DNA of 64,000 bases. Source: Candidatus Thorarchaeota archaeon. Lineage in GTDB: Archaea; Asgardarchaeota; Thorarchaeia; Thorarchaeales; Thorarchaeaceae. The notes under the pieces are model-generated. The model did no database searches, was not told the DNA's origin, and saw only the letters and a program-made list of their open reading frames with translations. Of this stretch, positions 27,960 through 29,399 are shown piece after piece (position 1 is the stretch's first letter; the number at the start of each line of letters is the position of its first letter). The position numbers and the translations under genes are program-made. The DNA lies in assembly GCA_048884785.1 (NCBI GenBank), contig JBHLQM010000002.1:33044-97043 (forward strand), given 5' to 3'.

Positions 27960-28352
27960 GTGAGCACCAAATTACCTCTCGAGGTGAATGTGTTCTCAGA
28001 TGGGCCTAAGGCCTGCTCGATGTGTGAGATAACTCCCTATGGACCTGTTTTTCAAAGTCTATTATCAGCTTTCCTGAGTCTAGCAAAAAATAGGATGAGT
28101 ACTACTCAGAAGGTGATACTACAGTGCTGTGTCAGCATTTTACGATTCAGAGAAGTAACTCTGACAGCATTAGCTGATTTAGTTTCTCGCAAAACAGGAG
28201 TACCATATAGTACAGTGAAATGGAATATACGCTCGCTAGTAGCGATTGGTTTCCTAGTTGGCGGAAATGCCGACAGTAAAGGGGAACTGGCATCATTCAC
28301 GGAGGTCGCAGCGATGCTTGTCGAGAATCTGGAAGAAATCGGGATTAAATGA
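27960..28352 (+). CDS. Winged helix-turn-helix protein (start uncertain; ATG 28020 possible)
   Basis: TLTALADLVSRKTGVPYSTVKWNIRSLVAIGFL. Confidence 0.65.
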   Translation: MSTKLPLEVNVFSDGPKACSMCEITPYGPVFQSLLSAFLSLAKNRMSTTQKVILQCCVSILRFREVTLTALADLVSRKTGVPYSTVKWNIRSLVAIGFLVGGNADSKGELASFTEVAAMLVENLEEIGIK

Positions 28353-28384
28353 TAACATCGAAGCCGAATGTGCCTATGATGTTT

Positions 28385-28442
28385 AGAGGTGATCGACAGA
28401 AGAGCAGGGTGCTTCCCTGTGCTCCAGTGTCAGAGTTCCTTT
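28385..28442 (-). promoter_or_regulatory. Candidate SECIS element in the 3' UTR of 28453..29253
   Basis: UGAC (28432-28429) / CGAU (28395-28392) quartet, 14-position helix with 11 pairs, apical loop AAGCA, basal AGG/CCU. Confidence 0.65.
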
Positions 28443-28452
28443 CGTGACAATG

Positions 28453-29253
28453 TCATTGCATCTTCTTGTCGAAAAGATTCCATGAACCATTCATGGAATC
28501 ACTCACCTCTTCAAGACTTGTGCCCGCAGACAGCAGTACATCAATTGAGGCTTTATCATTAGGCTGAACATCATCCAGGTTCCATTGAAGTCCCACGACA
28601 ATATCTCTTGGTCCAATCTCGAGGTTCTTGTTTAGATCGCGAATGGTTTCATTGATTGTAAGCTTGACCGGTGTTGATACATCCCACGAATCCGGCTTTG
28701 GCATCGAACCTATCTGGGCGAATAGATCAGTTTTGTCCCAAACTGTCATTATCCCAGTTTCAGGTTGATATCTAGCCATATCATCCTTGTAGCTTCTAGG
28801 CCCTCCAAGATCAAAATCCATCAGAAGATACATTCTGAGGTCTTTTATCACTTGGTCCGTGGTATTCCTCACTCCATGACGCCAAAGAAGAACCGGTACA
28901 TTCTTGCTCCAGAGGATATCTTCAACTCGTACCAGAGGGTTTCTCTCTCTGGAGTTGTATTCCCCTGTTATATGTACAGACCCTTGTTCTTTGATAGCTG
29001 ACATCACCATTTTGCTTGCTGGTTCAGTTGAACTGATGGCATGAGGTCTTCCCTCGAATACGAAGGTGGTCCAAAAACCAGCTTTGTAGTTCGATGGGTT
29101 TCGAAGCAATAGCCTATCATAGCCTTCGCGGTCGATCAAGCTCAGCCTCTTGATGAAGAGTCCGTTGCGGCCCTGTCCTCATGAAGCACATTCAATTGAA
29201 TAGGCCGCATCAAGTCTCGGAGTCCGGTTTCCTGTTTCCAAGATTTCAGACAT
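28453..29253 (-). CDS. Candidate selenoprotein, 266 aa, with N-terminal CASU motif (TGA at 29181-29179)
   Basis: ATG 29253 is in frame with track ORF 28453..29139; the only interruption is TGA in ...IECAS*GQGRNG...; SECIS-like hairpin downstream. Confidence 0.7.
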
Positions 29254-29399
29254 GATTCATCACGTGACCTTTGCATTGGTAGCTATCAATGATTTCAATA
29301 TAAACACTGAGCTTTGTGACCCTTGGAGATTTCGTATCGTCTTTCATAAAGTCTATAAAGTCGACCACGATTTTCGCTGTCGTTTGGGTGTGTTCTGCG

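What the first reader, a model, noticed from the sequence alone, without database searches (positions are those of the whole stretch)
28385..28442. Eukaryote-type SECIS-like hairpin 20 nt after the stop codon
Seen (minus-strand RNA): AGG-AACUC-UGAC-ACUGGAGCACAGGG-AAGCA-CCCUGCUCUUCUGU-CGAU-CA-CCU. This gives a UGAN/NGAN tandem G-A quartet, equal 14-nt arms with 11 pairs, unpaired AA opening the apical loop, and a short basal helix. Established: this is eukaryotic SECIS geometry, and eukaryote-like SECIS elements occur in Asgard archaea. Deviations: C instead of A before UGA, weak helix I, and a competing GACA/UGUC register.
Basis: partly seen in the sequence, partly recalled or inferred. Interest (0 to 1): 0.85.

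Follow-up and report, generated by a model that had tools for sequence, protein, structure and literature searches.

The report
Accessory arm of a Thorarchaeal SECIS
The hairpin is real, but it is the side arm of a three-armed selenocysteine-insertion signal whose true kink-turn core lies 20 nt upstream on the gene's own UGA stop codon, and the gene it serves is an Asgard selenoprotein that public annotation truncates.

Summary
In 29-43 related sequences only the inner 5 bp plus pentaloop (28405-28419, "H2") are conserved. The proposed UGAC/CGAU quartet, the 14-nt arms and the basal helix are not.

The real core is AUGA at 28453-28456, which contains the gene's UGA stop codon. It has a 3-bp C-stem, a 3-nt bulge, tandem G.A pairs, an 8-bp upper stem, a 12-nt A-rich loop and a 3' GA at 28423-28424. 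This fits the published Asgard type I eSECIS-like model.

H2 follows directly. The last codons pair with 28393-28403 and close a three-way junction.

The gene (28453-29253, minus strand, 266 aa) has a UGA at codon 25 in a CxxU motif, conserved in all 30 Thorarchaeal copies examined. The genome holds tRNA-Sec, SepSecS, EFSec and a Sec-type selD. The selD SECIS has the same three arms, here and in five other Asgard families.

The kind is known. The conserved side arm is not mentioned in the main texts I could search.

This scan had already noted the protein family, and three-armed SECIS elements, in other genomes.

The parts
28453..29253 (-). Selenoprotein gene, 266 codons plus UGA stop. ATG at 29253. 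All-beta galactose-mutarotase-like fold.
   Evidence: Translation with TGA=U. About 30 orthologs each have one in-frame TGA and match residues 1-265. AlphaFold2 pLDDT 93.4, and Foldseek hits to GH94 N-domains and aldose 1-epimerases at about 1e-8. No Pfam or NCBIfam hit.
29179..29181 (-). In-frame UGA, codon 25, read as Sec in the motif C-A-S-U. It lies 724 nt 5' of the SECIS core.
   Evidence: UGA at the same codon in all 30 copies, with invariant residues on both sides: C22, R29, G31.
28461..28472 (-). Helix I, 5' strand. These are the last sense codons (F-D-K-K region).
   Evidence: It pairs with 28393-28403 in the unconstrained minimum-energy fold. Across 42 elements, mean duplex energy is -11.2 kcal/mol against -4.4 for shuffled 3' strands. 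9 of 11 pairs show double changes.
28458..28460 (-). Kink-turn C-stem, 5' strand (UGC).
   Evidence: It pairs with GCA at 28420-28422. The closing C-G pair is invariant in 43 of 43 sequences. The middle pair covaries: GC, CG, AU, UA.
28453..28457 (-). Kink-turn bulge (A28457, A28456, U28455) and the 5' G-A (28454, 28453). This is the AUGA core, and UGA is also the stop codon.
   Evidence: UGA is invariant in 29 of 29 sequences. It is preceded by A in 26 and by G in 3. It is the stop codon in 28 of 29.
28445..28452 (-). Upper stem H1, 5' strand.
   Evidence: All 9 consensus pairs have changes on both sides and 86% of cells are paired.
28433..28444 (-). H1 apical loop, 12 nt, with AAA at positions 3-5.
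   Evidence: Most genera have a 13-nt loop starting GUAAAGC. The loop has diverged within the genus of this genome.
28425..28432 (-). Upper stem H1, 3' strand.
   Evidence: It covaries with 28445-28452.
28423..28424 (-). 3' G-A of the tandem sheared pairs.
   Evidence: The A is invariant. The G is G in 25, U in 3 and A in 1 of 29. The next base, G28422, is invariant.
28420..28422 (-). Kink-turn C-stem, 3' strand (GCA).
28405..28419 (-). It is the third arm of the junction.
   Evidence: On the alignment fitted to the model, 88% of cells are paired and 5 of 5 pairs have double changes. On the plain MAFFT alignment the figures are 82% and 4 of 5. An arm in the same position is found in selD of 28 Thorarchaeal genomes and 13 other Asgard genomes.
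28393..28403 (-). Helix I, 3' strand.

Best explanation
Bases 28393-28472 of the minus-strand RNA fold into one three-way junction. This junction is the SECIS of the gene at 28453-29253.

Anatomy:
- Arm 1 (helix I): the last codons paired with the 3' UTR.
- Arm 2: a textbook kink-turn. It has a 3-bp C-stem, a 3-nt bulge, and tandem G.A/A.G pairs whose 5' strand is the gene's own UGA stop within AUGA. An 8-bp stem and a 12-nt A-rich loop follow.
It sits between the C-stem and the return strand of helix I.

Inferred mechanism:
- While ribosomes are far upstream, the folded element recruits EFSec with Sec-tRNASec to the ribosome. It probably acts through a kink-turn-binding protein; L7Ae is the only obvious candidate, and no SBP2 is known in archaea.
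- UGA codon 25, 724 nt upstream, is then read as selenocysteine.
- When the ribosome reaches the last codons it melts helix I and the kink-turn, so the terminal UGA acts as a stop.
- H2 most likely braces the very short C-stem by stacking at the junction, and may add a contact surface.

Shown here: the conservation and covariation of all four helices, the conserved UGA, and the Sec machinery. Inferred: the binding partners, the role of H2 and the termination logic.
For: 1. The gene is a selenoprotein gene. TGA sits at codon 25 in a CxxU motif in all 30 copies (31-66% identity, about 16 genera), with conserved residues on both sides. The residues flanking the UGA form a beta-hairpin inside a confident fold.
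2. The genome has tRNA-Sec, SepSecS and EFSec, clustered on contig C35. Its selD has an in-frame TGA.
3. Structure. The unconstrained fold of 28390-28475 gives exactly this junction: -25.8 kcal/mol, z = -2.86.
4. Covariation. On a plain MAFFT alignment of 29 orthologs, the covariation score is 0.451 against 0.207 shuffled (0 of 500 shuffles reach it) and 0.10-0.17 when slid. H1 shows double changes in 9 of 9 pairs and H2 in 4 of 5. The C-stem closing pair is invariant.
5. On 43 sequences aligned to the model, the score is 0.506 against 0.223, and H2 shows double changes in 5 of 5 pairs. Helix I duplex energy is -11.2 against -4.4 kcal/mol.
6. H1 meets the published type I criteria: a GA_[G/A]A core, a 7-15 bp stem with at most 2 mismatches, and an 8-20 nt loop (PMC11227280). 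It also resembles lokiSECIS: AUGA, a 9-bp stem, an A-rich loop and a 3' GA (PMC4989117).
7. selD of this genome has the same architecture: AUGA on its stop codon, the upper hairpin, GA followed by the C-stem, H2, and helix I formed with the coding end. So do 27 further Thorarchaeal selD genes and 13 selD genes from five other Asgard families.
8. The covariance models find the same element behind a second UGA-containing gene family.
Against: There is no experimental evidence for Sec insertion, for the fold or for any binding partner.

No homolog with Cys in place of Sec was found, so the classical Sec/Cys pair criterion is unmet.

Rfam SECIS models give no match even at E <= 10. The literature reports the same failure for all Asgard SECIS elements.

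Helix I is absent or weak in a few orthologs (L022, L023, L037). Three orthologs have UA instead of GA at the 3' core.

The sequences are related, so shuffle statistics overstate significance.

H2 plus its pyrimidine-rich tail also fits a bacterial-style terminator pattern.
Confidence: 0.85

Rival explanations
1. The hairpin at 28387-28440 is itself the SECIS, with a UGAC/CGAU quartet, 14-nt arms and an AA-opened pentaloop.
For: The letters fit in this one genome, with 11 of 14 pairs. Folded alone the hairpin has z = -2.27.
Against: The 3' GA is missing in all five congeners. UGAC covaries as the partner of 28445-28452. The outer pairs and the basal helix are not kept (33% paired for the basal helix, no double changes). 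The 5-nt loop and 4 mismatches fail the published type I model. The minimum-energy fold pairs both quartet strands.
Confidence: 0.03
2. The hairpin is a transcription terminator, or a hairpin protecting the transcript 3' end, placed between two convergent genes and unrelated to Sec insertion.
For: It lies in a 100-nt gap between convergent ORFs. The consensus scan flags 28405-28419 plus its tail as terminator-like.
Against: The tail is not a U-run in many orthologs, and it pairs with the coding end with compensatory changes. The same arm sits at the same place relative to the kink-turn in three unrelated gene families and in six Asgard families. From established knowledge, archaeal termination relies on oligo-U tracts and aCPSF1 rather than on hairpins.
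Confidence: 0.05
3. H2 is not just a brace. It is a separate recognition site for archaeal EFSec or an unknown SECIS-binding protein, which would make the Asgard SECIS bipartite.
For: The top of H2 and its loop are more conserved than a brace would need. The two pairs next to the loop are G-C in 35 and 39 of 43 sequences, and loops are mostly NAGCA. selD H2 loops are also conserved, mostly CGCAA or AGCAA. The motif AAGCA recurs in the H1 loop consensus. No SBP2 is known in archaea (PMC11227280). Only two L7Ae-family genes are found in this genome.
Against: Loop sequences differ between gene families and lineages. Nothing here bears on binding.
Confidence: 0.2

Closest known systems
Asgard eSECIS-like type I element / lokiSECIS (Mariotti 2016, PMC4989117; Huang, Xiao and Zhang 2024, PMC11227280)
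   Same: An [A/G]UGA ... GA core, an upper stem of 8-9 bp, an 11-13 nt A-rich apical loop, a position at the very end of the gene, and AUGA doubling as the stop codon (reported for Loki VhuU.1). The loop start GUAAA matches what Huang reports for Thorarchaeial frhA.
   Different: It serves a protein family not in the published lists. The published models cover only the core, upper stem and loop. The main texts I searched contain no 'hairpin', 'junction' or 'three-way' description of a third arm. Three orthologs use UA at the 3' core, which lies outside the published pattern.
selD SECIS of the same genome and of other Asgard archaea (type II)
   Same: The same three-way junction: helix I with upstream sequence, a kink-turn hairpin, then a GC-rich 4-8 bp hairpin before the return strand. 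In Thorarchaeia, AUGA or GUGA is the selD stop codon.
   Different: The selD upper hairpin is longer and has an apical ministem. Its H2 loop is mostly CGCAA rather than NAGCA. The covariance model of the present element does not detect selD.
Eukaryotic SECIS (Rfam SECIS_1 and relatives; bound by SBP2)
   Same: An AUGA/GA kink-turn core, unpaired A's in the apical loop, a lower helix, and action at a distance from the 3' end of the message.
   Different: No Rfam match even at E <= 10. The upper stem is shorter. There is an extra arm on the 3' side of the internal loop. It overlaps the coding end and the stop codon. No SBP2 is present.
Euryarchaeal SECIS (GAA_A bulge, Methanococcales)
   Same: A 3' UTR position close to the stop codon and a short GC-rich distal stem.
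   Different: Neither arm has a conserved GAA/A asymmetric bulge. H2 is a continuous 5-bp stem.
Kink-turns elaborated into three-way junctions (k-junction; Wang et al. 2014, cited in PMC11227280)
   Same: A kink-turn joined to a three-way junction.
   Different: Here the junction lies three base pairs below the kink, at the end of the C-stem, not at the kink itself. This comparison rests on my own knowledge of that paper, which I did not read here.

Membership tests
Asgard eSECIS-like type I / lokiSECIS | Lies at or just after the 3' end of a gene with a conserved in-frame UGA | tested here: met
   UGA at codon 25 in 30 of 30 copies. The element starts on the stop codon.
Asgard eSECIS-like type I / lokiSECIS | Core of 5' [A/G]UGA and 3' [G/A]A flanking the upper stem | tested here: met
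   AUGA at 28453-28456 and GA at 28423-28424. UGA in 29 of 29. At the 3' core: GA in 25, AA in 1, UA in 3.
Asgard eSECIS-like type I / lokiSECIS | Upper stem of 7-15 bp with at most 2 mismatches, and an apical loop of 8-20 nt with A's near its start | tested here: met
   8 positions with 1 mismatch and a 12-nt loop with AAA. The orthologs have 9 bp and a 13-nt loop. All 9 pairs covary.
Asgard eSECIS-like type I / lokiSECIS | The host genome has tRNA-Sec, SepSecS, EFSec and SelD | tested here: met
Asgard eSECIS-like type I / lokiSECIS | Directs Sec insertion at the upstream UGA | not testable with these tools
   Needs a reporter assay, 75Se labelling or proteomics.
   4 mismatches in 15 positions, a 5-nt loop, and the 3' GA absent in the congeners.
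Eukaryotic SECIS (Rfam) | Match to a curated SECIS covariance model | tested here: not met
   No match at gathering score in the window, and none at E <= 10 in 28000-28900.
Kink-turn motif | C-stem, 3-nt bulge, tandem G.A/A.G, then a non-canonical stem, with a C-G pair closing the C-stem | tested here: met
   The sequence pattern is met. The closing C-G is invariant in 43 of 43 and the C-stem middle pair covaries. The kinked 3D geometry itself is not testable here.
Euryarchaeal SECIS | An invariant GAA / A asymmetric bulge between two stems | tested here: not met
   No such bulge in H1 or H2 in the alignments.
Hairpin terminator | A GC-rich hairpin followed by a conserved, unpaired U-run | tested here: not met
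   The pattern matches in this genome only. In the orthologs the tail is not U-rich, and it pairs with the coding end.
Selenoprotein gene (the upstream ORF) | Homologs with Cys aligned to the UGA position | tested here: not met
   All 46 database relatives are N-terminally truncated gene calls of 161-238 aa. No full-length Cys form was found. The UGA and both its flanks are nevertheless conserved.

The most novel reading that the evidence does not exclude
Asgard SECIS elements may in general be bipartite three-way junctions. That would give a mechanistic intermediate between the bacterial mode (SelB binds a hairpin loop) and the eukaryotic mode (SBP2 binds a kink-turn).
Probability: 0.2. Interest if true: 0.8.

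Novelty: new variant of a known kind. Interest (0 to 1): 0.6.

Why it matters
Asgard SECIS elements are the proposed link between archaeal and eukaryotic selenocysteine decoding, and how they are read is unknown because archaea have no SBP2.

Four things follow from this locus:
- Published search patterns model only the core, upper stem and loop. Behind selD in six Asgard families, and behind two further gene families in Thorarchaeia, the element is a three-way junction. Its third arm covaries and has a conserved loop.
- That arm gives a concrete, mutable target for finding what recognises the signal.
- It also gives a sharper descriptor for finding hidden selenoproteins.
- The element marks a selenoprotein family that homology-based surveys missed and that gene callers truncate. 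The family has a CxxU motif on a galactose-mutarotase-like beta-sandwich, not a thioredoxin fold. The same model led to a second, small membrane-anchored family.

If the third arm turns out to be only a brace, the result is still a corrected annotation and a better SECIS model.

Tried and rejected
- Rfam, at gathering score and at E <= 10, gave nothing.
- I scanned the genome for further copies. A hand-written kink-turn descriptor gave only this element and selD as convincing hits. A looser version was too noisy to use.
- Covariance model R1 found only this element in the genome. Its two hits at E of about 2-3 were inspected. One lies inside an ordinary coding sequence. The other (contig C10) was later confirmed with the full model R2 at E = 2e-6.
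- MvhD/FrhD and NiFe-hydrogenase genes of this genome show no in-frame stops in the matched parts. They therefore offered no further SECIS for comparison.
- The euryarchaeal SECIS reading of H2 was rejected because there is no GAA/A bulge.
- The terminator reading was rejected on ortholog evidence, despite a pattern match.
- No extra L7Ae-domain (SBP2-like) gene was found, only two L7Ae-family genes.
- Liu et al. 2018 on Thorarchaeota (PMC5864231) is not held.
- Complex prediction was not used, because RNA cannot be a partner there.

Full report
**Observation.** The quoted RNA is on the minus strand at 28440-28387. It lies in a 100-nt gap between two convergent ORFs, 28453..29139 (minus) and 27960..28352 (plus). 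Folded alone, the 58 nt give -18.8 kcal/mol with z = -2.27. In 101 nt of context z is -0.91. The minimum-energy fold pairs GACA with UGUC, so both strands of the proposed quartet are in Watson-Crick pairs. Rfam gives no match in the window at gathering score, and none at E <= 10 around the site.

**The gene.** Reading the upstream ORF through TGA extends it to an ATG at 29253 and gives 266 codons. A single in-frame UGA sits at codon 25 (29179-29181), in a C-x-x-U motif. A TTTATATT box lies at 29297-29304, 44 nt before that ATG.

A six-frame search of 60 relatives found the gene in 30 of 36 genomes of the same family (about 16 genera, 31-66% identity). Every copy has exactly one in-frame TGA, and the match covers residues 1-265. 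In the 30 copies I extracted, the TGA is always at the same codon. Invariant residues lie on both sides: M1, G8, P12, R13, D15, Y18, C22, R29, G31.

Public protein collections hold only N-terminally truncated gene calls of 161-238 aa, named hypothetical proteins of Thorarchaeota. No full-length Cys form was found. Pfam and NCBIfam give nothing.

An AlphaFold2 model from 27 orthologs is confident (pLDDT 93.4, pTM 0.91). Residues 13-22 and 29-40 form a beta-hairpin around the Sec position. Foldseek places the fold with the galactose-mutarotase-like supersandwich: N-domains of GH94 phosphorylases and aldose 1-epimerases, at E of about 1e-8.

**Sec machinery.** The assembly (3.6 Mb, 158 contigs, 91% complete) has four components:
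- tRNA-Sec at C35 12547-12637
- SepSecS next to it
- EFSec next to that
- a selD with an in-frame TGA

A close relative's contig is titled Candidatus Thorarchaeota archaeon.

**Where the SECIS core really is.** 28 of the 29 full-length orthologs end in TGA; the exception, L035, stops at a UAA inside the H1 loop. The base before the UGA is A in 26 and G in 3 of the 29. Directly after this [A/G]UGA comes a stem of typically 9 bp. A loop follows that in most genera is 13 nt and starts GUAAAGC. Then come the return strand, then GA, then an invariant G. RNAalifold on a plain MAFFT alignment recovers this stem, with 6-10 double changes per pair.

In the window the parts are:
- AUGA at 28456-28453
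- stem 28452-28445 with 28432-28425 (one mismatch)
- loop 28444-28433
- GA at 28424-28423

The three bases before the bulge (UGC, 28460-28458) pair with the three after the GA (GCA, 28422-28420). The motif is therefore a consensus kink-turn: C-stem, 3-nt bulge, tandem G.A/A.G, then the non-canonical stem. The C-G pair closing the C-stem is invariant in 43 of 43 sequences, and the middle pair covaries.

This arm meets the published type I model and resembles lokiSECIS. AUGA doubling as the stop codon is already reported for Loki VhuU.1.

- Its 'UGAC' is the 3' strand of the upper stem.
- Its 'CGAU' lies in a lower helix in which 28403-28393 pair with the last codons, 28472-28461.
- Only its inner five pairs and pentaloop (28419-28405, H2) are an independent hairpin.

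The unconstrained fold of 28390-28475 gives exactly this three-way junction: -25.8 kcal/mol, z = -2.86. Minimally constrained folds of most orthologs give the same.

Counted on an alignment not fitted to any structure, the three-way model compares with its controls as follows:

| Measure | Three-way model | Shuffled | Slid |
|---|---|---|---|
| Cells paired | 74.8% | 60.5% | - |
| Covariation score | 0.451 | 0.207 (0 of 500 reach it) | 0.10-0.17 |

In the same count H1 has double changes in 9 of 9 pairs, and H2 is 82% paired with double changes in 4 of 5.

Its basal helix is 33% paired and its outer pairs show no double changes.

On 43 sequences aligned to covariance model R2, the covariation score is 0.506 against 0.223. 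H2 is 88% paired, with double changes in 5 of 5 pairs. That alignment leans toward the model.

Helix I changes register between lineages, so I scored it per sequence. Mean duplex energy is -11.2 kcal/mol against -4.4 for shuffled 3' strands, and 30 of 42 sequences beat at least 95% of shuffles. It is missing in L022 and L023.

selD of this genome ends CCA-UGA, so AUGA again contains the stop codon. A longer upper hairpin follows, then GA and a C-stem (UCC with GGA). Next comes a 5-bp hairpin with loop CGCAA, then a strand that pairs with the coding end. The same layout holds in 27 further Thorarchaeal selD genes, and the H2 stems covary.

By eye, the layout also holds in 13 selD genes from five other families of the phylum. 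There the element lies a few bases after a UAA, UAG or UGA stop. Every one shows a 4-7 bp GC-rich hairpin between the kink-turn arm and the closing helix.

MvhD/FrhD and hydrogenase large-subunit genes of this genome have no in-frame stops in the matched parts.

**Other copies.** Model R1 (kink-turn arm plus H2) finds only this element in the genome. In 40 family genomes it finds one element per ortholog and second hits in nine genomes. Those second hits lie behind a small gene with an N-terminal hydrophobic helix and a conserved in-frame UGA in a motif of the form D-N-R-T-U-x-[DE]-Y-E-Y. The full model R2 also recovers a copy on contig C10 of this genome, at E = 2e-6. The three-armed element therefore serves at least three gene families in this lineage.

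**Rivals.** A bacterial-style terminator scan flags H2 with its tail. In the orthologs, however, the tail is not a U-run, it pairs with the coding end, and the arm recurs at a fixed place relative to the kink-turn in unrelated genes. A euryarchaeal-type SECIS is excluded because there is no GAA/A bulge. Only two L7Ae-family genes are found, and the literature reports no SBP2 in Asgard archaea.

**Mechanism.**
- Shown: a conserved UGA codon, complete Sec machinery, and a covarying three-way junction with a kink-turn consensus.
- Inferred: the folded element recruits EFSec with Sec-tRNASec to decode codon 25. The terminal UGA is not recoded because the ribosome has melted helix I and the kink-turn by the time it arrives; Mariotti et al. 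made the same argument for nearby stops. H2 stabilises the 3-bp C-stem at the junction and may add a contact surface.

**Novelty.** Eukaryote-like SECIS elements in Asgard archaea, and their overlap with the stop codon, are published. The 2026 review lists 11 archaeal selenoprotein families, none like this one.

The main texts of the two key papers do not describe a third arm. The word 'hairpin' occurs once in Mariotti 2016, in a cited title on E. coli mRNA hairpins, and not at all in Huang 2024. 'Junction' occurs only in a cited title. 'Three-way' is absent from Mariotti, the only one of the two papers searched for it. No paper in the library links the Asgard SECIS with a three-way junction. 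I could not see figures or supplements.

Earlier notes of this scan, read after my own analysis, report the same protein family with a SECIS on its stop codon in other genomes. They also report three-armed SECIS elements in Loki-type genomes.

Noticed in passing
G000 contig C10, locus L071:1480-1573 (minus); relatives L103, L106, L109: A second apparently unlisted selenoprotein family. It is a small protein with an N-terminal hydrophobic helix and an in-frame UGA in a conserved D-N-R-T-U-x-[DE]-Y-E-Y motif. The same three-armed SECIS follows it, but not in frame with the stop codon.
   Followed up: partly
L035 (genome G010), 3' end of the ortholog: In this one ortholog the reading frame runs through the GUGA core and stops at a UAA inside the upper-stem loop (GUAAAGC). 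The SECIS is kept although its UGA is not the stop codon.
   Followed up: no
Genomes G012, G027, G036 (genus g7) and G017, G031, G063 (genus g12): These genomes keep the UGA-containing gene and its SECIS, but a Sec-type selD was not found at E <= 1e-40. G017 and G063, among others, have only a SelD-like domain without stops inside ORFs of 532-782 aa, possibly a fusion.
   Followed up: no
window 28386-28394 (minus strand): The nine bases after helix I (GAUCACCUC) resemble, from memory, the 3' end of 16S rRNA (the anti-Shine-Dalgarno region). CACCUC is kept in all six genomes of the genus. In the folds it pairs weakly with the conserved Trp codon region upstream. It may be chance.
   Followed up: no
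G000 contig C35, 12547-16040: tRNA-Sec, SepSecS and EFSec lie side by side as a Sec-machinery cluster.
   Followed up: partly
window 29297-29304 (minus strand): A TTTATATT box lies 44 nt upstream of the ATG at 29253. This fits an archaeal promoter for the extended, UGA-containing reading frame.
   Followed up: no
window 28453-29139: Every public gene call for this family starts after the UGA (161-238 aa, 'hypothetical protein'). The family is systematically mis-annotated.
   Followed up: yes
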